64,000 nucleotides of DNA from an uncultured Acidobacteriota bacterium. GTDB taxonomy: Bacteria > Acidobacteriota > Thermoanaerobaculia > Multivoradales > JAHEKO01. The notes beneath the pieces are model-generated. The model ran no database searches. It had not been told where the DNA came from and saw only the letters and a list, made by a program, of their open reading frames with translations. The position numbers and the translations under genes are program-made. Shown here piece after piece: positions 12,664 to 30,038 of this stretch. Position 1 is the first letter of the stretch. Each line of letters starts with the position of its first letter. The stretch covers positions 1 to 64,000 of the forward strand of contig CAVQNG010000025.1 of assembly GCA_963713825.1 (NCBI GenBank), given 5' to 3'.

Positions 12664-12738
12664 AGCCAGACCATCCGCTTTGGAGACGGAAGTTTCGGGT
12701 TGCTCCAAAAGGACGGCATCGGGATATCCTTCCTTGTC

Positions 12739-14013: not shown

Positions 14014-14904
14014 ATGGACTTCAAGATGCAATATTGGCTGCAGCGCATCGTTCCACTGGTCGCCCTGGCACTGGTGGTTGCCTGCGCTAGTAGTCAGACG
14101 CCGCCACCTCCAGCTGCTCCCCCCGAGCCGGAGAGCACGACCTCCTCCGCTCCAGAGGACAAGACGAAGGGTGAAAGCGGGGCGGAAGCTGGTCAAGAGG
14201 GTGGCGGAGACGGTACTGCCGGCTCTGAAGGCGGCGGACAATCGGGCAGTCAGGCCGGCCAGGGACAGTCCTCTGGAGAGGACGGATCAGGTGAGGAAGC
14301 GGGAGGGGAGGCCGCCAGTGGGCAGCCCGGCTCCCAGGGCGCAGAGGGAGGCGAGGACCAGTCGCAGGGAGGCGGAGCGAGCAGTGGCGCAGGTCAGCCT
14401 GCAGGGTCCATGGCGGGAAGCGAGCCAACCTCTGAGCTGGACCAGGAGTTGATCGCCTCGCTCGAGAAGTTCGACGGAATGCTGGCCAGTGAACAGCAGA
14501 CGGCCGCGCAAGCACGCGCCGAGGCAGAGGTCGCGGCTGAAACTGCCGCGGGATCGTCCGGCGGGAGCGGAGCTTTCGGAGATGAAGACTCCGATTTCGG
14601 AGACCCGGTCGGTGGTGGGCAGACGGGAGATGAGCAGACCGCGGGCTCGGCAGCGCAGTCAGCCTCCGGTGGAGGCACCAGCGAGGAAGAGTCGGGCGCA
14701 GAGAGCTCCGCGCCGGCGGGTTCGGCCGGCGGTGGCGGGGGTGGCGGCAGGGTGCCCGACGATGTCGGGGACGGCAGTGACGACGATATCGTGGCACGAC
14801 AACTCCGCGAGGCGGCGATGAACGAGAACGATCCAGAACTGCGTGAGAAGCTCTGGGACGAGTATCGCGAATACAAGGCAGCCGTGAAGAGGAAGAGTGG
14901 CTGA
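14014..14904 (+). CDS. Uncharacterised lipoprotein with long Gly/Ser/Glu-rich disordered linkers and a C-terminal helical motif
   Basis: Lipobox 'LVVAC'; low-complexity body; C-terminal 'DDDIVARQLREAA..E.DPELREKLW.EY..YK'. Confidence 0.75.
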   Translation: MDFKMQYWLQRIVPLVALALVVACASSQTPPPPAAPPEPESTTSSAPEDKTKGESGAEAGQEGGGDGTAGSEGGGQSGSQAGQGQSSGEDGSGEEAGGEAASGQPGSQGAEGGEDQSQGGGASSGAGQPAGSMAGSEPTSELDQELIASLEKFDGMLASEQQTAAQARAEAEVAAETAAGSSGGSGAFGDEDSDFGDPVGGGQTGDEQTAGSAAQSASGGGTSEEESGAESSAPAGSAGGGGGGGRVPDDVGDGSDDDIVARQLREAAMNENDPELREKLWDEYREYKAAVKRKSG

Positions 14905-14919: not shown

Positions 14920-16161
14920 ATGAGATTGCAGAACGGAATTGCGTGTCTGGCCCTGGTGGCCTTGGGCCTTGTGGGATGTACTTCGACAGGTTCGCCCAGC
15001 TCTGGCAGTGCGGTGACCCTGATCCAAGCTGCAAGTGAGGTTCCAGAAGAGACGCTACTGGATGTGACGATCGAGGTCTTCGATCCGGGGTTGCTCGACC
15101 CGAGCGTACCTGTTGCCAAGGCCGAGAAAGAGGGGGTCTTCCCGGAGGTCCGAAAGGCCGAGGCGCGATTCATTCCCTATCAGCTCAAGCAGACTTTGCA
15201 GTCGACTGGCAATTGGGGAGCAGTCCGAGTGATGCCACAGGACACCTCCAGTGCAGAAGTGACTGTGACCGGCGAGATCATCAAGTCCACTGGCAAGGAT
15301 CTCGTGGTCGAGATCCAGGTGCAGGACTCGGCGGGTCAAACCTGGTTCGAGAAACGCTACAAGCAGGAGGCCGATGTCCTGGCGTACTCACCGGACCAGG
15401 TCAAGAAGAAGGATCCATTTCATGCCCTATACGGTGCTATCGCCAACGATTTGTTGGTTGAACGACAGAAGAGATCCCAAGCGGAGTTGATGAAGCTACG
15501 CCATATTGCGGACGTGCGGTTTGCGGCCGACCTGGCGCCGGTGGCGTTCGAGGACTATCTCAGCCTCGATCGCAAAGAGCGCTACAAGTTGGAGCATCTC
15601 CCCGCTGAGGATGACTCCATGATGGCTCGCATCGCCGAGATTCGAAAGCGCGATTACACCTTCATCGACACTCTCAACGAGTACTACGCCACTTTCACCA
15701 CCTCGATGGAAGAGCCTTATGACAACTGGCGGTCGTTCAGCTACGAGGAGCAACTGGCTCTGGAGAAGCTCCGTCGCCAGGCCAGGATGCAGAAGATCGT
15801 CGGTGCGCTGGCAATCTTCGGTGCTGTGGTTGCTCCGGGCGGCGGTAGCACCGCTGAGAGGGTGGCGCGCGATGTGGCCCTGATCGGCGGTATGGCGGCC
15901 ATTCAGAGCGGCATGGCCAAGTCACAGGAGGCCAAGATCCATGTCGAAGCCCTGCGTGAGCTGGGTGGCTCCCTGGATGTGGAAGTCACCCCGCTCGTTG
16001 TCGAGGTCGAAGGCGAGACACTGCGACTCAGCGGCACCATGGAAGGCCAATTTGCCGAATGGCGGGAGATGTTGCGGCAGATCTACGCCGAGGAGACCGG
16101 ACTGCCTGTGGACCCCAACGTCGAGGCAGGGCAGGCCGCCGGGACTTCGGTCGAGAACTGA
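14920..16161 (+). CDS. Uncharacterised lipoprotein
   Basis: Lipobox 'LVGC'; globular N-terminal part; glycine-zipper-like hydrophobic hairpin near the C-terminus; tight operon spacing. Confidence 0.75.
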   Translation: MRLQNGIACLALVALGLVGCTSTGSPSSGSAVTLIQAASEVPEETLLDVTIEVFDPGLLDPSVPVAKAEKEGVFPEVRKAEARFIPYQLKQTLQSTGNWGAVRVMPQDTSSAEVTVTGEIIKSTGKDLVVEIQVQDSAGQTWFEKRYKQEADVLAYSPDQVKKKDPFHALYGAIANDLLVERQKRSQAELMKLRHIADVRFAADLAPVAFEDYLSLDRKERYKLEHLPAEDDSMMARIAEIRKRDYTFIDTLNEYYATFTTSMEEPYDNWRSFSYEEQLALEKLRRQARMQKIVGALAIFGAVVAPGGGSTAERVARDVALIGGMAAIQSGMAKSQEAKIHVEALRELGGSLDVEVTPLVVEVEGETLRLSGTMEGQFAEWREMLRQIYAEETGLPVDPNVEAGQAAGTSVEN

Positions 16162-16181
16162 TTCCGGCGGTGCTTCGTCGT

Positions 16182-18167
16182 ATGTTCCCTCTCGAAAGCG
16201 GCCAGGTTCTCTGCTCCCGATTCACCTTGCTACGCCCCTTGGGTCGCGGGGGTATGGGCCAGGTCTGGCTGGCAAGCGATCGCCAGCTCGATGAAGAGGT
16301 GGTGACGAAGATCGTTCCGGCCGACGCCTCGGCGGTGACGATCGAGCTCTTGCGACACGAGTGTCGGAACACCCGCCGGTTGTCACACCCCAACATCGTC
16401 CGTGTCTTCGACTTCCATCAGTGTGACGGAGTGAGCTTCATCACGATGGAGCACATCACCGGAGAATCGATCGAGACCCTTCGCGGAGCTCCGATCGAGG
16501 ACATCGTCCAGACGCTCGCGTGGCTGGCAGGAGCTCTCGATCACGCCCACCAGGCAGGAGTGGTCCACCGAGACGTCAAGGCCGGCAACGTTCTTCTGGA
16601 TCGTACTGGTCAGCCGCGGTTGACGGACTTCGGAATCGCTGCGGTCCTAGACCCGGGTGACGGGGATCTACGCCTCGAAGGGGGTGGGTCGAGATACAGC
16701 ATGAGTCCACAGCAAGCGGCGGGAGATCCCCCACAGCCCTCCGACGACATCTACGGGCTGGGAACCCTGGCCTATCATCTGATTTCGGGACACCCTCCCT
16801 TTTGGTCCGAGGGCGACCTGGAGAGGATCCAGCGAGTCGCTCCGGAGCCCTTCGATCCCCAGAGAGGGGTGCCATCGACACTTCAGGCTCTGGTCGACCA
16901 GATGTTGGCCGAGTCGACAGCCGACCGTCCGGCACACATGGCCGAGGTGCGAAGGGCTCTGGAGGAAATCAACAGAGGATTGTCGGCGGCCGAGACCCAG
17001 GCACCGGAAGTTCGGCCCGCCGCGGTTCGACTCACTCCTCCTCCCAAGATCGAGTCTCGACGCCCTCTGGTCGGTCAAGACTCGGCCGTCAAGTCCGAGA
17101 GCAGGGCCCGGCTTTGGAGCACCGTGGCGGTCTTTTTGGTGCTCGGAGCGCTGGTCCTGGGCGTCTTTCTGCTGCTGCCGGGTTGGGTGCAGCGGCGCAG
17201 TGAGTCCGAAGAGGGTTGGGGGAGCTCGGAACATCAGGTTGCCGTGACTTCGGAGAGCAGAGAGGAGCAGTCGGCGTCGGTCAGCGAGCTGTCAGTCGAG
17301 CCCGAGATTGGCGAGCGTCGCGAGGCTCGACCGGAGACAGTAGTCGCCGAAACCACCGCTGAGCCGACCGAAGAGCCGACTCTTGATCCTGCTGCTGAAA
17401 GGGTGAAGCAGACGACCACCGGAGACTTCGGAATCGTAGTCCCTTCCCAGCAGGAAACGAGTTCGGACGCCGAGTTTCGCCGGGCCATGTCCGCAGGCCT
17501 GACAGCGCTGGAGGCGAGTGACTTTCCATCGGCCAAGCAGGCCTTCCAGCGAGCACGGGAGCTCTCACCAGGCTCTTCGGAGGTCGTGGATGGCCTGGGT
17601 CGAGCCGAAGAGGGTCTGCGGCTCGCCGCCATCGCGGCGCACCGCTCACGGGCTGAGGAATTCGAGCGCCAGGAAGATTGGAGTGCAGCTCTGCGAGAGT
17701 ACGATGCCGTATTTGGCCTCGACCCGACGATTCGCTTCGCGCGTGAGGGCAAGGCCCGAGCTGAAGTTCGATCCCAGCTCGCCGAGGGACTGGAGGATCA
17801 CATCGCTCATCCCGACCGATTGTCCAACGACGAAGTGTTGGAGAGTGCCGAGAGGCTCTTGAGCGATGCCAGGTCAGTGGAGCCGCCGGGTCCGGTGCTG
17901 CGCCGGCAGATCGACAGTATGACCAAGCTGTTGGCCGTCGCGACAACACCGATCCGAGTCGAGTTGGTCTCCGATAACCTCACGGAGGTGACGGTCTACC
18001 GAGTGGGTCGTTTGGGGAGATTCACCCAACAGGTCCTCGACCTACGCCCGGGCACCTATACGGTCGTCGGCAGCCGGGCGGGTTATCGGGATGTGCGTCA
18101 TCGGCTGACGGTCTCGCCGAGCCAGAGCTCGAAGCCCGTCGAAGTTCGGTGCTTGGAGGAGATTTGA
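16182..18167 (+). CDS. Membrane Hanks-type Ser/Thr protein kinase with periplasmic TPR-like and C-terminal PEGA-like regions
   Basis: 'LGRGGMGQVW', 'HPNIV', 'HRDVKAGN', 'DFG', 'SDDIYGLG'; one TM helix; helical repeats; 'LRPGTYTVVGSRAGY'. Confidence 0.88.
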   Translation: MFPLESGQVLCSRFTLLRPLGRGGMGQVWLASDRQLDEEVVTKIVPADASAVTIELLRHECRNTRRLSHPNIVRVFDFHQCDGVSFITMEHITGESIETLRGAPIEDIVQTLAWLAGALDHAHQAGVVHRDVKAGNVLLDRTGQPRLTDFGIAAVLDPGDGDLRLEGGGSRYSMSPQQAAGDPPQPSDDIYGLGTLAYHLISGHPPFWSEGDLERIQRVAPEPFDPQRGVPSTLQALVDQMLAESTADRPAHMAEVRRALEEINRGLSAAETQAPEVRPAAVRLTPPPKIESRRPLVGQDSAVKSESRARLWSTVAVFLVLGALVLGVFLLLPGWVQRRSESEEGWGSSEHQVAVTSESREEQSASVSELSVEPEIGERREARPETVVAETTAEPTEEPTLDPAAERVKQTTTGDFGIVVPSQQETSSDAEFRRAMSAGLTALEASDFPSAKQAFQRARELSPGSSEVVDGLGRAEEGLRLAAIAAHRSRAEEFERQEDWSAALREYDAVFGLDPTIRFAREGKARAEVRSQLAEGLEDHIAHPDRLSNDEVLESAERLLSDARSVEPPGPVLRRQIDSMTKLLAVATTPIRVELVSDNLTEVTVYRVGRLGRFTQQVLDLRPGTYTVVGSRAGYRDVRHRLTVSPSQSSKPVEVRCLEEI

Positions 18168-20602
18168 AGGTCACCCTCGAGCTGCAGACCGGTGAAGGTA
18201 CGCGGCGGTACCAGGAAAGCGACTTTCCCCTGACCGTTGGTGGCTCCAACGCCGAAATCGAGATCCCGAACCGGCCCGTTGGCAGTCCGATCGGGCATCT
18301 CGGAATCGCTGAGGGCGAGTTCTTTCTACAGCCGATTGCTGGCGGTGACGTAGTCGTCTGCAACGGTGGGACCGTGACCACCTCGCAGTGGTTGCGCGAT
18401 GGCGATCTCCTTCGTGTCGGTGATGCAGAGCTGAAGTTCTCCTCGGACGGGAGTGGAGCCGTTCTGCAGCTCACACACCGCGATTCCGATGAAGGCACCG
18501 ATCCCCCAGTCGTCCTCTTGGCTGCCCCTTCTGCACCAGCTCAGAGAGAAGGTGCGGGAAGGCAGGAGATCCGCCCCGTGGAATTCACGCCAGCCGATCT
18601 CGAAATGGGTCGCCGCAGGCGAAGGGCTCCGCGCCCGGCCGCCCTGGCTCTGTGGCTGGTCCTGGGCCTCCTGGCGATGACTGCATGGTACCTGTTCTCA
18701 GCCCGGCCAGTAGAGATTCGAGTCGAGCCAGAACCTGAGGATCTGCAGGTCGAGGGTGGCTGGTTACAGCTCGAGATCGGCGGCAGGGTTCTTCTCCGCC
18801 CTGGGGCCTATACGGTTGTCGCAGAGAAGGCCGGCTATCGACAGCTGGAAAGCCCCATCGAGGTGACGAAGGCCAGCTCCCAGGTCTTCGAGTTCCAGCT
18901 CGAGAGGTTGCCGGGTCTGTTGATCGTCGAGTTGGGTGTCGAGGCAGCGGCGACGCTCAGGGTCGATGGCGAGAAGGAGGATGCCTGGCCGCCCGGGTCT
19001 GTCGAGCTGGCATCGGGAGAGCATGATCTTCTGATCCAGGCGGAGGGCTACCGAGACTTCGTGACCGTGGTGGACATCGAGGGGGGCGGTGTGGAGCAGA
19101 CCCTCGAAGTGGAGCTGCAGCCCCTTTGGGCCACGGTCACCCTCGATAGCCAACCCTCTGATGCCGCTGTGACGATCGATGGCGAGCAGGTCGGTCGTAC
19201 GCCGCTGACCACCGAGATCCTCGAAGGCAATCGAGCGCTCGAGATCAACCTTGCAGGTTTCAAACCTCATCGCACCAGGATGCAAGTCAAGGCTGAGGAA
19301 ACGATCGAGTTGCCGACGGTACGACTGCTACCCAATGACGGCTCTGTTGCATTACGCAGCGAACCCCATGGAGCTACCGTCACCGTCGACGGCGAGTATC
19401 GTGGGCTGACGCCGCTCGAGCTCACCATGGCTCCGGGGCGGCAGTACGAGGTGAGCCTTTCGAAACTGGGTTACGAGTCCCACACCCTCGAACTGGCGGT
19501 CGCTACGGGGGAGATCCGGACGGAAGCTGTGAAGTTGGTCGAGAGGCTGGGAGAGGTCGAGATCGTCACTCGACCCGAGGGTGCAGAGCTCTTCGTCAAC
19601 GGACAATCCCTTGGCGCCGCGAATCAGATCCTCAGGCTGCAGGCGGTGCCGCAGAAAATCGAGATCAGGAAGCAGGGCTACGTGTCTCATAGCCAGACTG
19701 TGACCCCAAGGCCAGGAGTCTCGCAGGCCCTCGAGGTCACCCTTCTGACTGAGCGGGAAGCCAAGGCAGCCGCATCTCCGCCGGTCATCCAGGGACCGCA
19801 AGGCCAGGAGCTCAGGCTCATCGAGCCGGGTCGCTTTCGAGTCGGCGCACCGCGCCGCGAGCCAGGTCGGAGAGCCAACGAGACTCTGCGCGAGATCGAG
19901 CTCACCCGAGCCTTCTATATGGCGACCCGAGAGGTCTCGAACCGGGAGTTTCGCCAGTTCGAGGCGAAGCACCGTTCGGGCCGGGCAGGTCGAGCGAGTC
20001 TGGAGAACGATCACCACCCCGTGGTGAATGTCAGCTGGGAGCATGCGGCCCGCTACTGCAATTGGCTGAGCGAGAAAGCCTCGCTCGAGCCGGCGTATGC
20101 ATTCCGCAACGGTAAGCTGCAGGGAGTCGATCCACTGAGCAACGGGTATCGACTACCCACCGAGGCGGAATGGGCCTGGGCAGCTCGATTTGCCGGGGGT
20201 AGTGGCTTGAAGTATCCGTGGGGTGCCGCGTTGCCTGTCAGTCCGGGCTCCGGCAACTACGCTGACCTTTCAGCCGTAGGCAACCTGGAGGCGACTCTGT
20301 CCGACTATCAAGATGGTTTTCCGGCTACCGCTCCAATTGACAGCTTCGGCCCCAATGCAGTTGGCCTGCAGAACATGGGCGGCAATGTCGCCGAATGGAC
20401 TCACGACTACTACGCTATTGCCCCGAGCAACTCCGGACCGCCGATCCGCGACCCCCTTGGTCCGGAGAGTGGCGACTATCATGTGATCCGAGGTTCCAGT
20501 TGGATGCACTCCACGGTGACGGAGTTGCGGCTCAGCTTTCGCGACTACGGCAACAAGCCGCGTCCAGACGTGGGCTTCAGAATCGCCCGCTATGCCGAAT
20601 GA
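18164..20602 (+). CDS. FHA-like + TM + multiple PEGA + FGE-sulfatase (SUMF1/GldK-like) domain protein
   Basis: N-terminal 'CNG...LRDGDLLRVG'; PEGA repeats 'S.P.GA.V.VDG...G.TP'; 'PVVNVSW..A..YCNWL', 'RLPTEAEW', 'MGGNVAEW', 'GFRIAR'; TTG start overlaps the kinase stop, RBS GGAGGAG. Confidence 0.88.
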   Translation: MKVTLELQTGEGTRRYQESDFPLTVGGSNAEIEIPNRPVGSPIGHLGIAEGEFFLQPIAGGDVVVCNGGTVTTSQWLRDGDLLRVGDAELKFSSDGSGAVLQLTHRDSDEGTDPPVVLLAAPSAPAQREGAGRQEIRPVEFTPADLEMGRRRRRAPRPAALALWLVLGLLAMTAWYLFSARPVEIRVEPEPEDLQVEGGWLQLEIGGRVLLRPGAYTVVAEKAGYRQLESPIEVTKASSQVFEFQLERLPGLLIVELGVEAAATLRVDGEKEDAWPPGSVELASGEHDLLIQAEGYRDFVTVVDIEGGGVEQTLEVELQPLWATVTLDSQPSDAAVTIDGEQVGRTPLTTEILEGNRALEINLAGFKPHRTRMQVKAEETIELPTVRLLPNDGSVALRSEPHGATVTVDGEYRGLTPLELTMAPGRQYEVSLSKLGYESHTLELAVATGEIRTEAVKLVERLGEVEIVTRPEGAELFVNGQSLGAANQILRLQAVPQKIEIRKQGYVSHSQTVTPRPGVSQALEVTLLTEREAKAAASPPVIQGPQGQELRLIEPGRFRVGAPRREPGRRANETLREIELTRAFYMATREVSNREFRQFEAKHRSGRAGRASLENDHHPVVNVSWEHAARYCNWLSEKASLEPAYAFRNGKLQGVDPLSNGYRLPTEAEWAWAARFAGGSGLKYPWGAALPVSPGSGNYADLSAVGNLEATLSDYQDGFPATAPIDSFGPNAVGLQNMGGNVAEWTHDYYAIAPSNSGPPIRDPLGPESGDYHVIRGSSWMHSTVTELRLSFRDYGNKPRPDVGFRIARYAE

Positions 20603-20629: not shown

Positions 20630-20866
20630 ATGAGGTTGATTCGATTCTCGATTCTTGTGCTGTTGTTGGTGGCCGGAGCCCTGATCGCGTTCGGGTCGCC
20701 AGGCTCGGCTGAAAAGGAGCAGACTGCCGCGGCGGCTGGGTCGGCGACGGAAGAGAGCCCACAGGCGGAGGAATCAGGGGAGAGTGAGGAGCGACCCCTG
20801 GAGACTTTCGTACCCACAGAGCGGCTGCCGGCCGACAGCGCCATTTCCTTTCCCGTCGACATTTGA
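20630..20866 (+). CDS. Small secreted protein ending in FVPTERLPADSAISFPVDI
   Basis: Signal peptide, acidic linker, RBS GAGGGAG; fills the gap in the operon. Confidence 0.75.
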   Translation: MRLIRFSILVLLLVAGALIAFGSPGSAEKEQTAAAAGSATEESPQAEESGESEERPLETFVPTERLPADSAISFPVDI

Positions 20867-20880
20867 GGGCTCAAGCTGCC

Positions 20881-21702
20881 ATGAAGAAAGACTATCCAGT
20901 CGAGTTCGTCTACCAGGCACTTTCCCTGATCGTGGCGGTGATCGTTGTGCACGCCTTCTACGTGGCGGTGGTTCGGCCCAGGGCGGACACCATCCTGGCC
21001 GAGCAGACAGCACAGATGCAGGCCGACCCGGACTACGTGCAAGAGCGGTCCATCTGGGTGATCATCCGGGACTTCGAACAGGAGGCCTGCTTCGTGCTGG
21101 CGCTCTGGGCGCTCGCCATCATGGCTCTGAAAGGGGCTCAGGCCGCCAAGGAGCGCAAGCTGCTGCAGGAAGACCTGGTGCCGGTGTCGGAGGGTACGAA
21201 GATCCTGCCGGAGGACGCGCGCGAGTATGCGCGTCAGATCCAGGCGCTGCCGGATGCCGATCAACGGGCGCTCTTACCCAGGGCGCTGCTGGCAGCTCTC
21301 GATCGATTCAGCGCCACCCGCAACATCCAGAATGCCTCGACTACGTCGCACGCCGTTTGCGAGGCGGAGTCCGACAGGCTCGAGTCCGAGCTCTCCATGG
21401 TGAGGTACATCGCCTGGGCGATTCCCTCCATCGGTTTTCTTGGCACCGTGAGGGGCATCGGTGAGGCCCTAGGACAGGCCCACAAGGCAGTGGAAGGCGA
21501 CATCGCAGGCGTCACACAGAGCCTGGGAGTGGCCTTCAACTCCACCTTCATCGCGCTGCTGATCAGCATCGTGCTCATGTTCCTGTTGCACCAGCTGCAG
21601 CTGCACCAGGAAAGGTTGGTCCTCGACACTGAGACCTATCTGGATCGGCACCTGATCCGACATTTGCAGGTCCAGACAACGCCGTCGACCCTCCCCGGAT
21701 GA
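20881..21702 (+). CDS. MotA/TolQ/ExbB proton channel family protein
   Basis: 'AIPSIGFLGTVRGI' and 'SLGVAFNSTFIAL' signature TM helices. Confidence 0.92.
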   Translation: MKKDYPVEFVYQALSLIVAVIVVHAFYVAVVRPRADTILAEQTAQMQADPDYVQERSIWVIIRDFEQEACFVLALWALAIMALKGAQAAKERKLLQEDLVPVSEGTKILPEDAREYARQIQALPDADQRALLPRALLAALDRFSATRNIQNASTTSHAVCEAESDRLESELSMVRYIAWAIPSIGFLGTVRGIGEALGQAHKAVEGDIAGVTQSLGVAFNSTFIALLISIVLMFLLHQLQLHQERLVLDTETYLDRHLIRHLQVQTTPSTLPG

Positions 21703-23120
21703 GCCAGACGACCACGGTTGCCGTCGAGTTGAACGATGTTGGGGTCGTCGCGGCCGGTCCCGGCCTGCAATCGATGGACCGAAGTCCGGGTTACGCGTTA
21801 CTCGATGACGATCGAGTCCTGGTCGGTAGGGAAGCCGTCGACCGAGCTCGCCTGAAGCCGAGATGGGTCGTGAATCGATTCTGGGACCGGCTCGATGCCG
21901 AGCCATTGGGCCGTCCCTTCCCCCACAATCTGCGCAACGCGGATCTCGTTCATGCCCATCTCACCGAGGTGTGGAGGAGCGTCCAAAGTGCCATGGACCC
22001 CCGATCGGGGACGGGTATCGAGGCAGTTGTGCTCGCGGTCCCTGGTTTCTATTCGAGTCAGCAGCTCGGGTTGCTCCTGGGTATTGGTCGAAGCAGCGGA
22101 GTGCCGATCGCTGGGGTGGTGGATTCGGCCCTCGTCAGCAGTGTCCGTTTGACAGAGGTCGAGCGCTCTCTCCATCTCGACATCTTGCTGCAGCGCGTGG
22201 TGCTCACGGAGTTGGCGCACTCCAGGAGTCTGGCGAGGCAACGAGTCGAAAGTGAAGCGACAGCAGGATTGTCCAGGGTGATGGACCTCTGGGCCAAGCT
22301 GATCGCCAGTCGTTTCGTGCAACAGACCCGGTTCGATCCGTTCCATCACGGGGAAAGCGAGCAGGATCTCTACGACCAGCTGCCGGGTTGGATCGCGGAA
22401 ATCGCTCGCAACGAGGGTGCTCTCTTGACGCTGGAGTATCGAGGCAAGAACCACAGCATCGAAATCTCCGCCGCTGAGATGCAAAGTGCCGTTCGAGTTG
22501 TCTATCAGGGGATCTCGAATCTGGTTCGGGCGGTGGCCTCTACTGGCAGTCGGCCGGCCCTGATCCTCTCCCAAGATCTTTCGAAGCTGCCGGGACTCCA
22601 AGTAGAGCTCGAAGAGGCAGTTGGCTCGGAGGCCGTGATCCTCGAGTCAGGCGCCGCTGCGACCGGTGCCCTCGAGCAGCAGCACCTTCTGGTGCGAGAA
22701 GGGGAACCTGAAGTCGAGTTCGTGACCGAGCTCCCGCTCGAGCCGCCCACCGGCAGCCCCGTCTCTGCTTCACTTGCGACTTCGAGATTACCGAGGGATG
22801 CTTCGGAGGCGATCGTCAAGCCACCGACCCATCTTCTCTACGAAGGCGTAGCCCATCCAATCGACAAAGACCCCCTGGTTCTCGGCCTGGCTACTCCGGC
22901 AGAGACAAGAGGAGTCAATCTGACGGGGTCCACGGCCGGAGTCTCGCGCCGCCACTGCTCGCTCTGGCGGCAGGGCGATGAGGTCATCGTCGAGGACCAC
23001 AGCACCTATGGGAGCTTCCTCAATGGCGGCCGCATCGAAGGGCGGGCGTTGCTGGCCGCGGGTGACCGGCTACGGTTGGGCACTCCCGGGATCGAGCTGC
23101 ACCTGATTGCCGTGGAGTAG
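21699..23120 (+). CDS. Degenerate Hsp70/actin-like ATPase-fold protein with C-terminal FHA domain
   Basis: 'AVVLAVPGFY...G...G.PIAGVVDSALVS' resembles DnaK 'AVITVPAYF..AG.....IINEPTAAA'; FHA 'GVSRRHC...DHSTYGSFLNG...L..GDRLRLG'. Confidence 0.7.
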   Translation: MSQTTTVAVELNDVGVVAAGPGLQSMDRSPGYALLDDDRVLVGREAVDRARLKPRWVVNRFWDRLDAEPLGRPFPHNLRNADLVHAHLTEVWRSVQSAMDPRSGTGIEAVVLAVPGFYSSQQLGLLLGIGRSSGVPIAGVVDSALVSSVRLTEVERSLHLDILLQRVVLTELAHSRSLARQRVESEATAGLSRVMDLWAKLIASRFVQQTRFDPFHHGESEQDLYDQLPGWIAEIARNEGALLTLEYRGKNHSIEISAAEMQSAVRVVYQGISNLVRAVASTGSRPALILSQDLSKLPGLQVELEEAVGSEAVILESGAAATGALEQQHLLVREGEPEVEFVTELPLEPPTGSPVSASLATSRLPRDASEAIVKPPTHLLYEGVAHPIDKDPLVLGLATPAETRGVNLTGSTAGVSRRHCSLWRQGDEVIVEDHSTYGSFLNGGRIEGRALLAAGDRLRLGTPGIELHLIAVE

Positions 23121-23124
23121 ACCG

Positions 23125-24219
23125 ATGCCGCGGCGCACCACGAACGTCTTCAGTCTCTCCTTCCTGGATGCCATGACCTGTGGCTTCGGGGCCGTGGTTC
23201 TGTTCTTCATGGTCATCAACGCGGCCGTTGGCACCCGGTCGGAGCGCGTGACCGGAGATCTGAAGGCCGAGGTGGACCGCCTCGAACAGGAGGTCCTCGA
23301 GGGGCACCAGGACCTCGTGGAGCTCCGCAACTCGCTGCGGCTGGTCGATCAGCGAGAAGCCGAAGCACGCGGTCTGTCACGCCAGATCATCGAGAACATC
23401 GAGGATCTCCAAGTGGAGCTCTCGACCTACGAGAACACCACGTTGGCCCAAGAAGAGCACGTCAATCGGCTGATGGCGGACCTGAAGTCTCTAGAAGAGA
23501 GCAATAGGCGGCTGTCGGCCGCCGTGCCCGAAGAAGAGGAGCCGCCAGGAGATCGGTTGCGATCGTTCATTGGCGACGGCGACCGACAGTACCTCACGGG
23601 TCTCAAGGTCGGCGGTCAGAGGATCTTGATTCTGGTCGATGCCTCTGCCAGCATGTTGGACGAGACCATCGTCAACATCATCCGTCGGCGCAATCTACCT
23701 GCTGCTCGCAGGAAGCAGGCGGAGAAGTGGCGTCAAGCCGTAGCGACTGTCGACTGGGTCACGACCCAGATTCCTCGAAGCAGTCGCTTTCAGATCTATA
23801 CCTTCAACGAGGCAGCCGGGTCGGTGGTGCCTGAAAGCGATGGCCAATGGCTCGATGGCAGTGACAAGGATGTCCTCGACGATGCGGTAGAGCGGCTGTC
23901 CAGAGTGGCGCCCGAGAAGGGCACCAATCTCTACAATGCCTTCGTCGCGATCCGGGGCCTGCAACCGGCGCCCGACAATGTGATCCTGTTGGTCGATGGT
24001 CTCCCGACCCAGGGCAAGGCCAGTCCGCGTTCGTCGATGGTCTCGGCGCGCGAGCGGATGAAGCTCTACACCAAGGCGGTCGACCAGCTTCCTCGTGGCA
24101 TTCCGGTCAACGTAATCCTGTTTCCCATGGAGGGTGATCCGCGTGCTCCCAGTGCGTTCTGGCAGCTGGCCATGGCGACGCGAGGGTCGTTCTTGAGCCC
24201 CTCGAGGGACTGGCCATGA
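23125..24219 (+). CDS. Membrane-anchored vWA protein (ExbD/MotB-like TM Asp, coiled coil, vWA)
   Basis: 'FSLSFLDAMTCGFGAVVLFFMVI'; heptad coiled coil; MIDAS 'DASAS', 'GTN', 'LVDG'. Confidence 0.85.
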   Translation: MPRRTTNVFSLSFLDAMTCGFGAVVLFFMVINAAVGTRSERVTGDLKAEVDRLEQEVLEGHQDLVELRNSLRLVDQREAEARGLSRQIIENIEDLQVELSTYENTTLAQEEHVNRLMADLKSLEESNRRLSAAVPEEEEPPGDRLRSFIGDGDRQYLTGLKVGGQRILILVDASASMLDETIVNIIRRRNLPAARRKQAEKWRQAVATVDWVTTQIPRSSRFQIYTFNEAAGSVVPESDGQWLDGSDKDVLDDAVERLSRVAPEKGTNLYNAFVAIRGLQPAPDNVILLVDGLPTQGKASPRSSMVSARERMKLYTKAVDQLPRGIPVNVILFPMEGDPRAPSAFWQLAMATRGSFLSPSRDWP

Positions 24220-25235
24220 GGAGGGGGCGTCGGCGAGGTGCTCCCGAGGGCTTCAGCCTGTCGTTTCTCGACGCGATCTGCTGTGGTTTCGGAGCGATCG
24301 TGCTGCTGCTCGTGCTGACCAAGATCGGCGAACCACGGGCCCTGGAGCAAGCGCGAATCAATCTGGATGGGCTGGTCGAGAAGCTCGAGCAGGAGCTGTT
24401 CGAGATCCGAGGAGAGACCGAGGTCCTCAATCGCAGCCTCACCAGTCGGCAACAGCAGCTCTCGACGGAGCGCGAGCTCATCGCACGCCTGAAAGGAGAC
24501 CTGTCGAGCATCCAGGGCGAGTTCGCGGCCTCGAAGCAGGAGTCGGAAGTCCAGGACATCATCGAAGGCCGCTTGTTGTCGGCGCAGCAGAAGCTGACGG
24601 TGGAGATGCAGCGATTGCGGCAGCAAAGCCAGGAACAACCTCGACAGGTCGAGCAGCAGCTGGTGGGGGGAATTCCCGTAGATAGCGAGTACATCATCTT
24701 CGTGATCGACACCTCGGGAAGCATGTTCACCTATGCCTGGCCGGCTGTGATGCGAAAGATGACCCAGGTTCTGGACGCCCACCCAAAAGTCAAAGGCATC
24801 CAGATCATGAACGACATGGGGCAGTACATGTTCTCCAGCTATGCCGGCAAGTGGATCCCCGATACTCCAGGTAGGCGAAAGGCCATTCTGGACCGACTGC
24901 GAACTTGGAGTGTGTTCAGCAACAGCAGTCCTGTCGAGGGGATCACCAGGGCAATACGCACCTTCGTGGCGCCGGACAAGAAGATCAGCATCTACGTCTT
25001 TGGAGACGAGTTCACCGGTCGCTCCATCGACGACGTCGTTGAGTCCGTGGCCCGAATCAATCGACGCGACTCCAGAGGCAACCGCCTGGTCCGGATCCAC
25101 GCCGTCGGCTTTCCGGTCATGTTTGCCGTGTCCGGTGTTTCGAACTCGACGGGTGTGCGCTTCGCCACGCTGATGCGGATCCTCTGCCACCGCAACGGCG
25201 GCACCTTCGTAGGCCTGAACAGCACGAAGCCATAA
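24216..25235 (+). CDS. Second membrane-anchored vWA protein (paralogous architecture)
   Basis: 'FSLSFLDAICCGFGAIVLLLVL'; coiled coil; MIDAS 'DTSGS', 'FGDE'; ATGA overlap. Confidence 0.85.
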   Translation: MRRGRRRGAPEGFSLSFLDAICCGFGAIVLLLVLTKIGEPRALEQARINLDGLVEKLEQELFEIRGETEVLNRSLTSRQQQLSTERELIARLKGDLSSIQGEFAASKQESEVQDIIEGRLLSAQQKLTVEMQRLRQQSQEQPRQVEQQLVGGIPVDSEYIIFVIDTSGSMFTYAWPAVMRKMTQVLDAHPKVKGIQIMNDMGQYMFSSYAGKWIPDTPGRRKAILDRLRTWSVFSNSSPVEGITRAIRTFVAPDKKISIYVFGDEFTGRSIDDVVESVARINRRDSRGNRLVRIHAVGFPVMFAVSGVSNSTGVRFATLMRILCHRNGGTFVGLNSTKP

Positions 25236-25346
25236 GGGGACTGGGGGTTGAGGCGGCCGGGCGTGCCTTCCGGCCGATCCTTGGGGCCTTGGGGGTTGAG
25301 GTGGCCGTTGTACCTCCGGCCTGTCTTCGAGGGCTTGGGGCTTGAG
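25236..25346 (+). repeat. ~47-bp tandem G-rich repeat with GGCCG hairpin (about 2.3 units)
   Basis: Units GGGnnTGGGGGTTGAGGyGGCCG..GTrCCTyCGGCC..TCyT; same unit at 27568-27668 (minus) and 37420-37488. Confidence 0.8.
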
Positions 25347-25448
25347 TCCTCAACATATGACCACAATCTGCGAGGGATCCTCGGAGCGCCGAATCGACAG
25401 GAAGGCATCTACCTTAGAATTGGCCGACGATGCATGGAGGCTGACTCG

Positions 25449-27149
25449 ATGCGACGCTTGACCTTGACTGTTCTTCTTGCCCTTGGAGCTGGGCTTCTAG
25501 ATCCAGCGATTGAAGGGGCCTCGTTCCCGGCGGTACGGGGTCATGGTGGTGCAGTGGCATCGGCGGAGCCGGCTTCGACCGAGGTCGGGCTCGAGATCCT
25601 GCGCGCCGGTGGCAATGCCGTCGACGCGGCCGTGGCGACTGCCCTCGCGCTGGCTGTTGTGCATCCGCAGGCTGGCAACCTGGGCGGCGGCGGATTCGCC
25701 GTCGTCCGGATGGAAGGCCAGCTGACGAGCCTGGACTTCCGGGAGGTAGCGCCCGCCGCAGCCACCCGGGAGATGTATTTGGATGCCGAAGGTCGGCCGG
25801 TGAAGGACGCCTCCATCTTCGGACCGCTGGCCGCGGGTGTGCCGGGATCACCGATTGGGCTATACGAGCTCCACCAACGCTACGGTGCTCTCCCATGGCC
25901 CCAGGTGGTCAGGCCAGCCCGGCTGCTGGCCTCCGACGGTTTCCAGGTCACGACTCGGCTTCGCGAGTCCCTGGCCGAGGAGCAGGAGACTCTCGAGCGC
26001 TTTCCCGAGACAGCGGCGGTGTGGCTGCCGGACGGTCGACCACCAGCTGTCGGCAGTCGAATGCGTCTGCCAGCCCTTGCGGCTGCGCTCGAAGCCTATG
26101 CCGAGCAGGGTCCACGGGCGCTGACCGAGGGACCGATCGCCGAGGCCATCGAAAGGGCTTCGAAGGCGCACGGTGGTCTTCTGCGGGTGTCCGATCTCCA
26201 GAGTTACATGGCGGTCTGGCGGCGACCGCTGGAATTCAGTGCGTTCGGGTGGAAGATGGCGGCGATGGACCTTCCCGCCTCCGGAGGGATCATCGTGGCG
26301 CAGACCCTGGACCTGCTGGAGAGTCTCGGCTGGAGCGAGTTGTCCCGCTTCGGTGCCGACCGGGCGCATCTGCTGGCCGAGGTGTGGCGCCGCTCCTATG
26401 CCGATCGATTCCTCATGGGGGATCCGAGGAGCTCCGAGGCCGACTCGCAAGGCCTGCTGGCCCCCGAGTGGCTCGCCTATCGGCGATCGACAATTCAGAT
26501 GGACAAGGCATCGCTGTCCGCCGACATCGCCCGCCTCCCCGCCTCCCCGCCTGCCGAGAGCCCGGACACCACCCACGTGGCGGTGGCCGATGCCGCCGGG
26601 AATCTGGTGACGCTGACCACGACCCTCAACGACACCTTCGGTTGCAGGCTTCTGGTTCCGGAGGCCGGCTTCCTGCTCAACAACGAGATGGACGACTTCG
26701 CCGCCGCGCCGGGCCGCCCGAACATGTTCGGGTTGGTCCAGGGCGAAGCGAATGCTGTGCGGCCTGGTCACCGGATGCTGTCCTCTATGACACCGACCCT
26801 CGCCTGGCGCGGGGAGGAGGCTGTCTCTTTGGGAGGTCGCGGAGGCTCTCGCATCCCCACGGCCGTAGCTCAAGTCCTGCTCCATCTATTGGTGGATGGC
26901 GACCCGCTGCAGACCGCCATCGATAGGCCGCGTCTGCACCACCAATGGCTTCCCAACGTGCTTCGGGCTGAAGCGGACGCCCTGAGCCCTGAGACCATAG
27001 AGGAGCTCTCGAGACGAGGGCACGAGGTCGATATCTGGACCAAGGACGCCAAGGTGAACGCCGTCCGAGCTCTCGAAGATGGCACCTTCGAGGCCGCCGC
27101 CGACCCCCGTGGCCCCGGCGCCGCCGGAGTTGTCAATTCGATTCACTGA
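25449..27149 (+). CDS. ggt: Gamma-glutamyltransferase
   Basis: 'GGNAVDAAVA', 'LGGGGF', 'DFRE.AP', catalytic 'TTH', 'LNNEMDDF', 'SSMTP'. Confidence 0.95.
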   Translation: MRRLTLTVLLALGAGLLDPAIEGASFPAVRGHGGAVASAEPASTEVGLEILRAGGNAVDAAVATALALAVVHPQAGNLGGGGFAVVRMEGQLTSLDFREVAPAAATREMYLDAEGRPVKDASIFGPLAAGVPGSPIGLYELHQRYGALPWPQVVRPARLLASDGFQVTTRLRESLAEEQETLERFPETAAVWLPDGRPPAVGSRMRLPALAAALEAYAEQGPRALTEGPIAEAIERASKAHGGLLRVSDLQSYMAVWRRPLEFSAFGWKMAAMDLPASGGIIVAQTLDLLESLGWSELSRFGADRAHLLAEVWRRSYADRFLMGDPRSSEADSQGLLAPEWLAYRRSTIQMDKASLSADIARLPASPPAESPDTTHVAVADAAGNLVTLTTTLNDTFGCRLLVPEAGFLLNNEMDDFAAAPGRPNMFGLVQGEANAVRPGHRMLSSMTPTLAWRGEEAVSLGGRGGSRIPTAVAQVLLHLLVDGDPLQTAIDRPRLHHQWLPNVLRAEADALSPETIEELSRRGHEVDIWTKDAKVNAVRALEDGTFEAAADPRGPGAAGVVNSIH

Positions 27150-29275: not shown

Positions 29276-29569
29276 ATGTCCAAGGTCACCTCCAAACTGC
29301 AAGTCACCATCCCCAAGGCGATTGCGGAACAGTACGGCATCAAGCCGGGAGACGAGATCGAGTTTCGGCCGGCTGGCCAGAGCATTCGCATCATCACACC
29401 CAGGGGTCGTACGGCAGGTCGACTCAGCCTCGAGGAGCGCTTGCGGCTGTTCGATGCCTCGATCGAAAGACAGCGAGAACGCGAGAAGCACATGAAGCTG
29501 CCATCAGAGCCGCGCGCGGAACGAGATTGGAAGAGAGAGGATCTCTACACCCGTGACAAATCTCGTTGA
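29276..29569 (+). CDS. AbrB/MazE/SpoVT-family antitoxin (VapB-like)
   Basis: 'KVTSKLQVTIPKAI...GIKPGD'; C-terminal 'WKREDLY'. Confidence 0.88.
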   Translation: MSKVTSKLQVTIPKAIAEQYGIKPGDEIEFRPAGQSIRIITPRGRTAGRLSLEERLRLFDASIERQREREKHMKLPSEPRAERDWKREDLYTRDKSR

Positions 29570-30038
29570 CACCAATGTGCTGGTCTACTGCTTCGACCCT
29601 CGATCTCCAGCCAAGCAGGCCATCGCTTGCGAAGTGGTGCGGCAGGGGCTCGCGAACAGGCAGCTAGTTCTCCCGCATCAGGCTACTGTCGAGTTCGTGG
29701 CTGCAACGACTCGGCCGCGCTCCGATTTGGGTGGTGCGCCCTTGCTCGCTCCTCAAGTAGCCTATCGCGAAGCCGAGGCCCTGCTGAGGAACTTCTCCGT
29801 CTTGTACCCGGATGAAGATGTATTGAACACAGCGCTTCGAGGTGTCTCTACACTCGGCCTCTCTTGGCTCGACGCCCATCTCTGGGCCTACGCGGAAGTG
29901 CATGGTCTCCCCGAAATCCTCTCCGAGGATTTCGAGCACGGCCGCCACTACGGTCGCGTCAGGGTTGTCGACCCGTTCCTCGTTGCTGCAGACGAGGTCC
30001 ACGAGCTGCCACCGATGTTCGACTCCGTCGAGTCCTGA
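29553..30038 (+). CDS. PIN-domain toxin (VapC-like)
   Basis: 'VDTNVLVY', 'E', 'SWLDA', 'SEDF.HG', 'DPF'; overlaps the antitoxin. Confidence 0.9.
   Translation: MTNLVDTNVLVYCFDPRSPAKQAIACEVVRQGLANRQLVLPHQATVEFVAATTRPRSDLGGAPLLAPQVAYREAEALLRNFSVLYPDEDVLNTALRGVSTLGLSWLDAHLWAYAEVHGLPEILSEDFEHGRHYGRVRVVDPFLVAADEVHELPPMFDSVES

What the first reader, a model, noticed from the sequence alone, without database searches (positions are those of the whole stretch)
23125..25235. Two vWA proteins appear to replace ExbD/MotB as a heterodimeric motor plug
Seen: both start with a short basic tail followed by near-identical TM segments, 'SLSFLDAMTCGFGAVVLFF' and 'SLSFLDAICCGFGAIVLLL', then ~100-aa coiled coils and vWA domains with DxSxS MIDAS. 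Known: ExbD/TolR/MotB have the same topology with an essential Asp early in the TM helix, and the Myxococcus gliding motor uses two different partners (AglQ, AglS). Inference: a 5:1:1 motor whose output is a metal-dependent adhesion domain on a stalk, rather than a peptidoglycan-binding or TonB-binding domain.
Basis: partly seen in the sequence, partly recalled or inferred. Interest (0 to 1): 0.8.

Follow-up and report, generated by a model that had tools for sequence, protein, structure and literature searches.

The report
Proton motor with vWA-headed axle pair
Two neighbouring membrane proteins with sticky metal-binding heads on long stalks most likely form the central axle of a proton-driven membrane motor, an idea already published as a computer prediction in 2025 and still untested at the bench.

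Summary
Window 23125-24219 (vWA1) and 24216-25235 (vWA2) encode paralogues (hhalign E 5e-24). Each has a basic tail, a membrane helix with a buried Asp, a ~100-residue coiled coil and a vWA head with DxSxS. They follow a MotA/TolQ-like gene that has no ExbD/TolR/MotB partner.

Over 192 related loci the helix motif carries Asp 361 times and Ser 6 times. All six Ser cases are vWA2 of one gammaproteobacterial clade; the partner vWA1 keeps Asp in 5 of 5 loci where it is visible. That pattern fits an asymmetric heterodimer.

A vWA1+vWA2 model passed its controls (ipSAE 0.78, best control 0.00). The 5:1:1 complex with the channel could not be modelled here.

The reading is not new. Mol Biol Evol 2025, msaf138 (PMC12204202) proposed transpore-helix vWA pairs beside tolQ-like genes, and this scan reached the same verdict on eight other genomes.

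This report adds four things:
- a conserved wider operon: lipoprotein, Ser/Thr kinase, PEGA/FGE protein, Hsp70-like/FHA protein;
- the single-Asp clade;
- a natural head-to-head fusion;
- an invariant TxxI/V site in the channel's cytoplasmic loop.

Verdict: an uncharacterised member of a predicted family; moderate interest.

The parts
14014..14904 (+). u1: predicted lipoprotein (signal sequence then Cys), acidic Gly/Ser-rich and low in complexity, with a short conserved C-terminal helix
   Evidence: Translation; no Pfam family. tblastn found it upstream of u2 in some related loci only; the low complexity limits detection.
14920..16161 (+). u2: conserved 413-aa lipoprotein. The N-terminal alpha/beta domain resembles ring-forming outer-membrane lipoproteins; a long helical hairpin (residues 233-354) follows.
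   Evidence: Lipobox read; no Pfam family. Present in 57 of 58 loci with enough flank and in the divergent clade. AF2 pLDDT 83.8, pTM 0.81. Foldseek hits to FlgT, an LPHT ring entry, CsgG, PelC, LptE and the TolB N-domain, E 1.6e-5 to 6.5e-3, with low TM-scores of 0.12-0.52.
16059..18167 (+). Membrane Ser/Thr protein kinase with a periplasmic TPR-like and CarboxypepD_reg/PEGA-like C-terminal part. The start codon is uncertain: the longest ORF overlaps u2.
   Evidence: Pkinase E 9.9e-35. HRD and DFG read. Weak TPR and CarboxypepD_reg hits. A kinase hit lies upstream in 61 of 61 loci with enough flank.
18149..20602 (+). Bitopic protein: cytoplasmic N-domain (possibly a divergent FHA), one membrane helix, three PEGA domains, and a C-terminal FGE-sulfatase (GldK/PorK/TagR-type) domain
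   Evidence: FGE-sulfatase E 2.4e-45 and PEGA E 2.4e-44. Partial GldK match E 2.2e-33, well below its cut-off. Pfam finds nothing in the N-domain. Its profile gives only weak PDB hits (E 0.1-1.3), 10 of 14 of them FHA domains. Present in 63 of 63 loci.
20863..21702 (+). MotA/TolQ/ExbB-like channel subunit (true start probably ATG 20881). Pore threonines T195 (in 21424-21462) and T228 (in 21523-21558). Invariant cytoplasmic T152-R-N-I at 21316-21327.
   Evidence: PF01618 E 2.1e-14, 53.8 bits, cut-off 22.9. Alignment to E. coli TolQ 8odt puts T195 on T145 and T228 on T178, though the hit itself is weak, E 0.023. Invariant in 54 sequences and in 59 further ones. Immediately upstream in 67 of 67 loci.
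21699..23120 (+). Cytoplasmic protein: Hsp70/actin-like nucleotide-binding-domain relative plus a C-terminal FHA domain (about 22881-23117)
   Evidence: FHA E 6.8e-11. Profile against PDB: FHA domains E 7e-6; Hsp70-family chains (7z3n, Ssz1, Sse1, Ssb) E 1.6e-4 over profile positions 70-352. Present in 62 of 67 loci of the first set. Absent from a divergent clade of 25 of 68 loci.
23125..24219 (+). vWA1: basic tail; helix 23149-23229 with Asp15 (23167-23169); coiled coil about 23230-23544; vWA head 23620-24216 with DASAS 23638-23652, T267, D291; invariant C-terminal W-P
   Evidence: Homologues carry PF13519 or PF13768. At least 7954 relatives at E<=0.001 among 8000 scored.
24216..25235 (+). 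vWA2: basic tail; helix 24252-24323 with Asp19 (24270-24272); coiled coil about 24324-24629; vWA head 24690-25232 with DTSGS 24708-24722, SNSS 24918-24929, D264
   Evidence: 2570 representatives at 50% identity with E<=0.001, 478 with E<=1e-30.

Best explanation
vWA1 and vWA2 form a parallel heterodimer held by their membrane helices, an in-register coiled coil of roughly 95 residues, and a head-to-head contact. The two helices sit in the pore of a pentamer of the MotA/TolQ-like protein, in the place ExbD, TolR or MotB normally occupy. This gives a 5:1:1 proton-driven unit.

The buried Asp (D15, D19) faces the conserved threonines T195 and T228 and carries the proton. Channel and axle then turn or pull against each other. 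The movement passes up the stalk, about 15 nm by arithmetic from helix length, to two MIDAS-bearing vWA heads in the periplasm. The heads hold a partner through a metal ion.

The likeliest partners are encoded in the same conserved operon: lipoprotein u2, with a fold like ring-forming outer-membrane lipoproteins, or the PEGA/FGE protein, which may supply in trans the cell-wall anchor that MotB carries in cis.

A membrane Ser/Thr kinase and one or two FHA proteins, one fused to an Hsp70-like domain, probably switch the motor from the cytoplasm. The invariant T152-x-x-I/V in the channel's cytoplasmic loop is a candidate phosphosite.

Shown: domain anatomy, conservation, synteny, absence of a canonical partner, a heterodimer model.
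Inferred: insertion into the pore, proton coupling, the ligand, the regulation, the physiological role.
For: (1) The channel is a true PF01618 member, 53.8 bits against a cut-off of 22.9. T195 and T228 align to TolQ T145 and T178 and are invariant in 54 and 59 sequences.

(2) No canonical partner. Pfam and NCBIfam find no ExbD/TolR/MotB in the operon. tblastn with the genome's three ExbD proteins hits 0 of 80 related loci of up to 19 kb. Those three ExbD genes all lie beside two other ExbB/TolQ genes.

(3) Synteny: MotA-like in 67 of 67 loci and vWA1 in 71 of 71 loci that have enough flank, across Acidobacteriota, Alpha-, Gamma-, Zeta- and Deltaproteobacteria and Planctomycetota.

(4) The helix is the most conserved region of both proteins. 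Asp is present in 69 of 69 complete vWA1 and 81 of 81 vWA2 N-termini of the first set.

(5) Heterodimer model: ipSAE 0.78 (runs 0.77, 0.78, 0.79), best of 3 controls 0.00. That mark was reached by 58 of 80 solved complexes and 2 of 110 mismatched pairs. Runs agree in at least 75% of contacts, and partner pLDDT is 74. Contacts follow a heptad pattern over 39-102 and 43-107, plus helix residues 21/24/28 against 21/24-25/28-29/32, and C-terminal strands 353-363 against 328-336. My own alignments were used, so the calibration holds only roughly.

(6) Evidence for asymmetry that does not depend on a model. Six loci of one gammaproteobacterial clade, 66-89% identical to P0133, have Ser for Asp in vWA2, while vWA1 keeps Asp in 5 of 5 visible. 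That vWA2 sequence is on 22 contigs.

(7) P0184 fuses a vWA2 head to a vWA1 head behind a signal peptide. It is seen on 5 contigs, the longest 5.8 Mb.

(8) PMC12204202 reports AF3 models of its family with both Asp in the threonine ring. I read the section and figure legend; the figures and supplement were not seen.
Against: - No model or experiment here puts the helices in the pore.
- Hmmscan of the N-terminal 50 and 150 residues at E<=10 gives no ExbD or MotB match. Similarity of the helix to ExbD is therefore by eye only.
- The match of the channel profile to solved TolQ is weak, E 0.023.
- Homodimers were not modelled, so the pass does not show heterodimer preference.
- Some relatives have a signal peptide or lipobox in place of helix and stalk (P0184, P0201, P0222, P0260), so the heads can work without a motor.
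- The single-Asp clade conflicts with the usual two-Asp alternation scheme of 5:2 motors (that scheme is recalled, not from a call).
- The system is patchy: 5 of 151 sampled genomes of the phylum, G000 included. Its role is therefore accessory.
- The ligand, the T152 site and the FHA nature of the PEGA/FGE N-domain are inference.
Confidence: 0.62

Rival explanations
1. The vWA proteins are membrane-anchored periplasmic scaffolds or co-receptors, like BatA/BatB or the vWA domain of T6SS kinase PpkA. They feed the kinase/FHA pathway and do not enter the channel. The MotA-like protein works alone or with something else.
For: The vWA2 head resembles BatB 3ibs (E 3e-6). The operon carries a kinase, FHA domains, an FGE-domain protein and lipoproteins. 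These resemble the TagQ/TagR/PpkA/Fha1 set, in which TagR has an FGE-sulfatase domain (passages of PMC13713981; the PpkA vWA domain is recalled). Headed relatives without a helix exist.
Against: An anchor would not be the most conserved part of the protein with an invariant buried Asp, Gly and Cys. MotA-like is adjacent in 67 of 67 loci and no ExbD is present in 0 of 80. No MoxR or DUF58 gene, as in Bat operons, was found among the operon proteins scanned.
Confidence: 0.15
2. Two separate homodimeric motors: five MotA-like subunits with two vWA1, and five with two vWA2.
For: Canonical ExbD, TolR and MotB are homodimers (established knowledge). Homodimers were not modelled here, and paralogues 23% identical could each self-pair.
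Against: A vWA2 homodimer in the Ser clade would have no Asp at all, yet that clade keeps the rest of the helix motif over 66-89% identity. The two genes co-occur in 71 of 71 loci, with overlapping stop and start. The heterodimer model passed. A head-head fusion exists. The same genome also has one ExbB followed by two ExbD paralogues.
Confidence: 0.1
3. The vWA proteins bind the outside of the pentamer as TolA and TonB do, like the other vWA family described in the same paper.
For: PMC12204202 describes a first family of vWA proteins with TolA/TonB topology beside tolQR-like genes.
Against: That family has the SHLS motif with an essential His, and has tolR-like genes next door. Neither helix here has a His (sequences), and no tolR-like gene is present.
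Confidence: 0.05
4. The N-terminal hydrophobic segments are cleaved signal peptides and the proteins are soluble in the periplasm.
For: Basic tail followed by a hydrophobic stretch. Some relatives do have ordinary signal peptides.
Against: The segment carries an invariant Asp, is more conserved than the mature part, runs without a break into the coiled coil in the model (helix 15-105), and shows no conserved small-x-small site after it in the N-termini listed. No signal-peptide predictor was available.
Confidence: 0.02

Closest known systems
[quoted passage not shown] 4c,d (both read)
   Same: A helix-tethered vWA protein, in a heterologous pair, next to a tolQ-like gene without tolR/exbD/motB. 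Conserved Asp in the helix, no SHLS motif, threonines conserved in the channel. Found in Proteobacteria and beyond.
   Different: The paper seeded its search from Idiomarina loihiensis, and the text read gives no accession, so a direct sequence link was not made. No Idiomarina record was among the 195 loci fetched. The passages read name Proteobacteria and Verrucomicrobia; this locus is from Acidobacteriota. They do not mention the kinase, FHA, Hsp70-like, PEGA/FGE and lipoprotein genes, the Ser clade or the head fusion. Figures and supplement were not seen and may show some of these.
ExbB-ExbD, TolQ-TolR and MotA-MotB 5:2 motors
   Same: A PF01618 channel with the two pore threonines. A partner with a short basic cytoplasmic tail and one helix with an early buried Asp, N-in and C-out.
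   Different: The partner has no ExbD (PF02472) or OmpA-like domain. It carries a coiled coil and a vWA head, and appears to be a heterodimer. In one clade only one chain has the Asp.
Myxococcus AglR-AglQ-AglS gliding motor; also ExbB with two ExbD paralogues, as in this genome
   Same: One channel gene with two different plug genes.
   Different: AglQ, AglS and the ExbD paralogues are TolR/ExbD family proteins. The Agl comparison is recalled, apart from mentions in the listing of PMC11761067 and in passages of PMC12505986.
GldLM/PorLM motor with the GldK/PorK ring of type IX secretion
   Same: A 5:2-type motor whose axle reaches into the periplasm, in a gene set that includes an FGE-sulfatase-fold protein (GldK partial match E 2.2e-33).
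   Different: No GldL, GldM or GldN relatives are seen. The FGE protein here is anchored in the inner membrane, with PEGA domains. The score of 116 bits is far below the GldK cut-off of 350.
TagQ-TagR-PpkA-Fha1 threonine-phosphorylation pathway of the Pseudomonas H1-T6SS (PMC13713981, passages read)
   Same: A membrane Ser/Thr kinase, FHA protein(s), a periplasmic FGE-sulfatase-fold protein and lipoprotein(s) encoded together.
   Different: No T6SS genes are here. The vWA domains sit on the putative axle rather than on the kinase. Likeness is of parts only; no homology test was made.
BatA/BatB membrane vWA proteins
   Same: An N-terminal membrane helix and a periplasmic vWA head. BatB is among the best structural matches.
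   Different: No MoxR or DUF58 neighbours. Bat proteins are not reported with a MotA-like gene (recalled).

Membership tests
TPH-vWA / tolQ-like motor family (PMC12204202) | vWA domain tethered by an N-terminal membrane helix | tested here: met
TPH-vWA / tolQ-like motor family (PMC12204202) | Tight co-occurrence with a tolQ-like gene | tested here: met
   PF01618 hit; 67 of 67 loci; also in the divergent clade
TPH-vWA / tolQ-like motor family (PMC12204202) | No tolR/exbD/motB gene in the neighbourhood | tested here: met
   0 of 80 loci by tblastn; the genome's 3 ExbD genes lie elsewhere
TPH-vWA / tolQ-like motor family (PMC12204202) | Genes occur as a heterologous pair | tested here: met
   hhalign E 5e-24, 23% identity; 174 of 192 loci show exactly two helix motifs
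TPH-vWA / tolQ-like motor family (PMC12204202) | Conserved Asp in the helix, no SHLS/His motif | tested here: met
   361 Asp, 6 Ser over 192 loci; 111 of 112 representatives; no His in either helix
TPH-vWA / tolQ-like motor family (PMC12204202) | Helices predicted inside the pentamer with Asp at the threonine ring | not testable with these tools
   Seven chains exceed the six-chain limit, and the single job went to the heterodimer. Only conservation of T195 and T228 was shown.
TPH-vWA / tolQ-like motor family (PMC12204202) | Sequence homology to the Idiomarina loihiensis exemplar | not tested
   No accession in the text read and supplements are closed. No Idiomarina record among the loci; Alteromonadales relatives (Pseudoalteromonas denitrificans, Opacimonas viscosa) were found.
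ExbD/TolR (PF02472) | ExbD periplasmic domain and a profile match | tested here: not met
   No hit at E<=0.01 on the whole proteins or at E<=10 on the N-terminal parts
MotB / OmpA-like stator plug | C-terminal peptidoglycan-binding OmpA-like domain | tested here: not met
   No OmpA family hit; the C-terminal domain is a vWA fold
TolA/TonB-like vWA transducers (first family of PMC12204202) | SHLS motif with His in the helix; tolR-like genes adjacent | tested here: not met
   No His in the helices; no tolR-like gene
MotA_ExbB (PF01618), for the channel gene 20863-21702 | Profile match above the curated cut-off | tested here: met
   53.8 bits against 22.9. Not an equivalog of TolQ or ExbB: 28.5 bits against 221, and 24.4 against 135.
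Zorya ZorA/ZorB defence motor | ZorA with a long cytoplasmic tail, plus ZorB | tested here: not met
   Only weak ZorA hits, E 9e-4 and 7e-3, over the shared channel core; nothing for the vWA proteins
BatA/BatB aerotolerance operon | vWA membrane proteins with MoxR ATPase and DUF58 genes | tested here: not met
   Structural likeness of the head only; no such families among the operon proteins scanned

The most novel reading that the evidence does not exclude
The eight-gene operon builds a phospho-switched, proton-driven machine that spans the envelope. A 5:1:1 motor has an asymmetric axle that needs only one proton-carrying Asp. The axle pulls through metal-dependent vWA heads on a ring-type outer-membrane lipoprotein (u2) or on a cell-wall-bound PEGA/FGE protein. 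A membrane Ser/Thr kinase gates the motor by phosphorylating the invariant T152-x-x-I/V of the channel loop, which FHA domains then read. This would be a new kind of envelope force or damage-response device. It would also be a natural test of whether 5:2-type motors can run on a single Asp.
Probability: 0.15. Interest if true: 0.8.

Novelty: new member of a known kind. Interest (0 to 1): 0.45.

Why it matters
MotAB, ExbBD, TolQR, GldLM and ZorAB show that one proton-driven core can be fitted with different outputs. A core whose axle ends in integrin-like metal-dependent binding heads would be another output, and its function is unknown.

The family is large: 2570 representatives at 50% identity. 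It is very conserved, about 60% identity between phyla. It also occurs in cultured strains, so it can be tested: Halioglobus japonicus, Parahaliea mediterranea, Microbulbifer echini, Pseudoalteromonas denitrificans, Sulfidibacter corallicola, Sneathiella sp..

The clade in which one chain lost its Asp bears on a live question: how many protonatable Asp residues a 5:2-type motor needs. The kinase/FHA context suggests the motor is switched by phosphorylation. I know of no such report for a motor of this class, and I made no literature search on that point.

Tried and rejected
- Hmmscan of the N-terminal 50 and 150 residues at E<=10 gave no ExbD/MotB match. Homology of the helix to ExbD stays unproven.
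- Profiles of vWA1 and vWA2 against PDB sequences gave only coiled-coil noise and one integrin hit at E 0.7. The fold had to be shown by modelling.
- PADLOC found nothing for the vWA proteins and only weak ZorA hits for the channel, so I dropped a defence-system reading.
- The eLife 2020 paper on vWA-MoxR conflict systems (PMC7159879, passages read) does not mention ExbB or TolQ; rejected as a frame.
- The mBio 2025 MotAB phylogeny (PMC12505986, passages read) has no von Willebrand mention.
- The protein atlas gave unnamed or vWA-named clusters and no new lead.
- The u2 profile found no PDB sequence relative.
- Pfam does not support an FHA domain at the N-terminus of the PEGA/FGE protein. The profile search gave only sub-significant FHA hits, so I call it 'possibly FHA'.
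- I looked for an Idiomarina relative through three genome scans without finding one.
- The 5:1:1 complex was not attempted, for reasons of size and chain number.
- Literature searches behind the statement that only PMC12204202 proposes this. One search failed on a malformed term.
Full report
WHAT IS THERE. On the + strand the window carries a tight run of genes:
- u1, 14014-14904, and u2, 14920-16161. Both have a signal sequence followed by Cys.
- A membrane Ser/Thr kinase, 16059-18167 (Pkinase E 9.9e-35).
- A bitopic protein with three PEGA domains and an FGE-sulfatase domain, 18149-20602 (E 2.4e-44 and 2.4e-45).
- A MotA/TolQ/ExbB-family protein, 20863-21702 (PF01618, 53.8 bits, cut-off 22.9).
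- A cytoplasmic protein with a C-terminal FHA domain, 21699-23120 (E 6.8e-11).
- vWA1, 23125-24219, and vWA2, 24216-25235.

vWA1 starts 4 nt after the preceding stop, and vWA2 overlaps the vWA1 stop in ATGA. Terminator-like sites are no more frequent than in shuffles, 5 against 6.7.

- Both proteins have a basic tail and a helix with the quoted strings, 14 of 19 residues identical.
- Both have a long helical stalk. The AlphaFold2 model of vWA2 has helices 15-105 and 109-138.
- Both have a head with DASAS or DTSGS plus the later Thr/Ser and Asp of a MIDAS site, invariant in 68-sequence alignments.
- Pfam is weak on vWA1 (22.4 bits, below cut-off) and silent on vWA2.
- The vWA2 model matches BatB, integrin I domains, ITIH1 and other vWA domains, E 2e-6 to 6e-5.
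- The two proteins are clear paralogues: hhalign probability 99.6%, E 5e-24, 262 columns.

IS THE HELIX A MOTOR PLUG?

(a) Conservation.
- The helix is the most conserved part of each protein: 0.74 and 0.88, against 0.65 and 0.76 for the head and 0.54 and 0.62 for the stalk.
- D15, G20, G22 and L26 are invariant in vWA1. S16, F17, L18, D19, C23, G26, A27 and L31 are invariant in vWA2.

(b) Asp across relatives.
- 69 of 69 complete vWA1 and 81 of 81 vWA2 N-termini in the first 80 loci plus the window carry it. One vWA1 (L012) is cut by the contig end.
- Among the best 150 representatives at 50% identity, 112 have an N-terminus. 111 carry Asp and one, P0133, carries Ser. The other 38 are fragments or have other N-termini.
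- Over 192 loci from three scans the motif has Asp 361 times and Ser 6 times. A few contigs were fetched twice. Three further regex matches with Lys lie in another gene and are chance.

(c) No canonical partner.
- Nothing in the operon matches ExbD, TolR or MotB.
- tblastn with the genome's three ExbD proteins hits none of 80 loci.
- Those three genes sit beside two other ExbB/TolQ genes.

(d) The channel keeps the pore threonines.
- The alignment to E. coli TolQ (8odt) is weak as a hit (E 0.023) and has no gaps.
- It puts T195 on T145 and T228 on T178.
- Both are invariant in 54 and in 59 further sequences.

(e) Neither helix has the His of the SHLS motif that marks TolA/TonB-type binders (motif).

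HETERODIMER.
- A full-length vWA1+vWA2 model with my alignments scored ipSAE 0.78 (0.77, 0.78, 0.79). The best of three controls scored 0.00.
- That mark was reached by 58 of 80 solved complexes and 2 of 110 mismatched pairs. Runs agree in at least 75% of contacts and partner pLDDT is 74.
- The calibration holds only roughly with my own alignments. A pass supports binding and does not show it.
- Contacts form a parallel in-register coiled coil, with helix-helix contacts and pairing of the C-terminal strands of the heads.
- Homodimers were not modelled.

Two observations independent of the model agree with it.
- In six loci of one marine gammaproteobacterial clade, vWA2 reads AFLS where others read SFLD, while the vWA1 next door keeps Asp in all five loci where it is visible.
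- That vWA2 sequence is on 22 contigs, so it is not a read error.
- A motor made of two vWA2 chains would then have no Asp. A mixed axle still has one.
- P0184 is a natural fusion of a vWA2 head to a vWA1 head behind a signal peptide, on 5 contigs, the longest 5.8 Mb.

THE WIDER OPERON.
- With vWA2 as bait, loci with enough flank contain vWA1 in 71 of 71, MotA-like in 67 of 67, the Hsp70-like/FHA gene in 62 of 67, the PEGA/FGE gene in 63 of 63, a kinase in 61 of 61 and u2 in 57 of 58.
- The gene order is the same throughout.
- A more distant clade, 35-40% identical, includes Sneathiella, Mariprofundus, Opacimonas and Candidatus Endobugula. It keeps u2-kinase-FGE-MotA-vWA1-vWA2 but lacks the Hsp70-like/FHA gene. 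It accounts for 25 of 68 loci in that set.
- The profile of the Hsp70-like protein hits FHA domains (E 7e-6) and Hsp70-family nucleotide-binding domains (E 1.6e-4).
- u2 models well (pLDDT 83.8). Its N-domain resembles FlgT, CsgG, PelC, LptE and the TolB N-domain, but TM-scores are low, so this is a lead.
- The N-domain of the PEGA/FGE protein is only possibly FHA.
- The channel's cytoplasmic loop has an invariant Thr (T152) followed at +3 by Ile or Val, in 59 of 59 sequences of both clades.
- That Thr could be a kinase target read by FHA domains. This is inference, based on recalled knowledge of FHA preference for pT-x-x-I/L.
- PEGA domains are described as peptidoglycan-associating in PMC7159879 (passage). 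This suggests the PEGA/FGE protein could anchor the machine to the wall.

DISTRIBUTION.
- At least 7954 relatives of vWA1 were found among 8000 scored.
- At least 544 stretches in species genomes encode a relative.
- There are 2570 representatives at E<=0.001.
- Inside the window's phylum the system is patchy: 5 of 151 sampled genomes including G000, and 4 of 105 genera.

WHAT IS KNOWN.
- PMC12204202 (section 8 and the legend of Fig. 4 read in full) describes helix-tethered vWA homologues that co-occur with tolQ homologues without tolR/exbD.
- They come mostly in heterologous pairs, have a transpore helix with a conserved Asp, and sit in the threonine ring in AF3 models.
- The authors state that function is unknown.
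- The locus meets every feature stated there that I could test. The pore model and the sequence link to the Idiomarina exemplar were not tested.
- The passages read do not mention the kinase, FHA, Hsp70-like, PEGA/FGE or lipoprotein genes. The figures and supplement, which I could not see, may show them.
- Four literature searches found no other paper proposing this.
- This scan noted the same architecture on at least eight other genomes with the same verdict. I had found the paper before reading those notes.

VERDICT. The locus is real, conserved and most likely a 5:1:1 proton motor with a vWA-headed axle (confidence 0.62). As an idea it is already in print, and as an object it is an uncharacterised member of that predicted family. 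The added points are listed in the summary. All of them are computational.

Noticed in passing
window 12700-13797 (+): A prokaryotic pentameric ligand-gated ion channel homologue: Neur_chan_LBD E 6e-20 and Neur_chan_memb E 7e-11. It lies just upstream of the operon.
   Followed up: no
window 29276-30038 (+): Two overlapping small ORFs that read like an AbrB/MazE-type antitoxin followed by a PIN-domain (VapC-like) toxin. Judged by eye from the translations; no family search was run.
   Followed up: no
G000:C9:869-1315 (L084) and G000:C3, about 241476-241673 (L085): Two closely similar small ORFs (148 and 126 aa) with weak MotA_ExbB matches (E 5e-6 and 6e-5). The neighbouring genes are also duplicated between the two contigs. 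No ExbD is nearby.
   Followed up: partly
L087 (G000:C3:1486021-1489365): A canonical ExbB followed by two different ExbD paralogues and a TonB-like gene. This is a precedent in the same genome for one channel with two different plug genes.
   Followed up: partly
P0184 (473 aa, unnamed source): A signal peptide, then a vWA2-type head, then a vWA1-type head in one chain, with no helix and no stalk. Found on 5 contigs, the longest 5.8 Mb. Its genomic context was not examined.
   Followed up: partly
L175 and L176: Gene order variant: the MotA-like gene lies after vWA2 instead of before vWA1, still in the same cluster.
   Followed up: no
L138 (Verrucomicrobia MAG): A vWA2 relative (53% identity) with no detectable MotA-like, vWA1, FGE or kinase match to the window's proteins in 7 kb either side at the thresholds used. 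It may be a different context or too diverged.
   Followed up: no
window 25248-27149 (+): The gamma-glutamyltranspeptidase gene directly downstream (E 4e-146) is kept only in the two closest relatives, L001 and L002, apart from one weak match several kb downstream in L073. It is probably not part of the system.
   Followed up: partly
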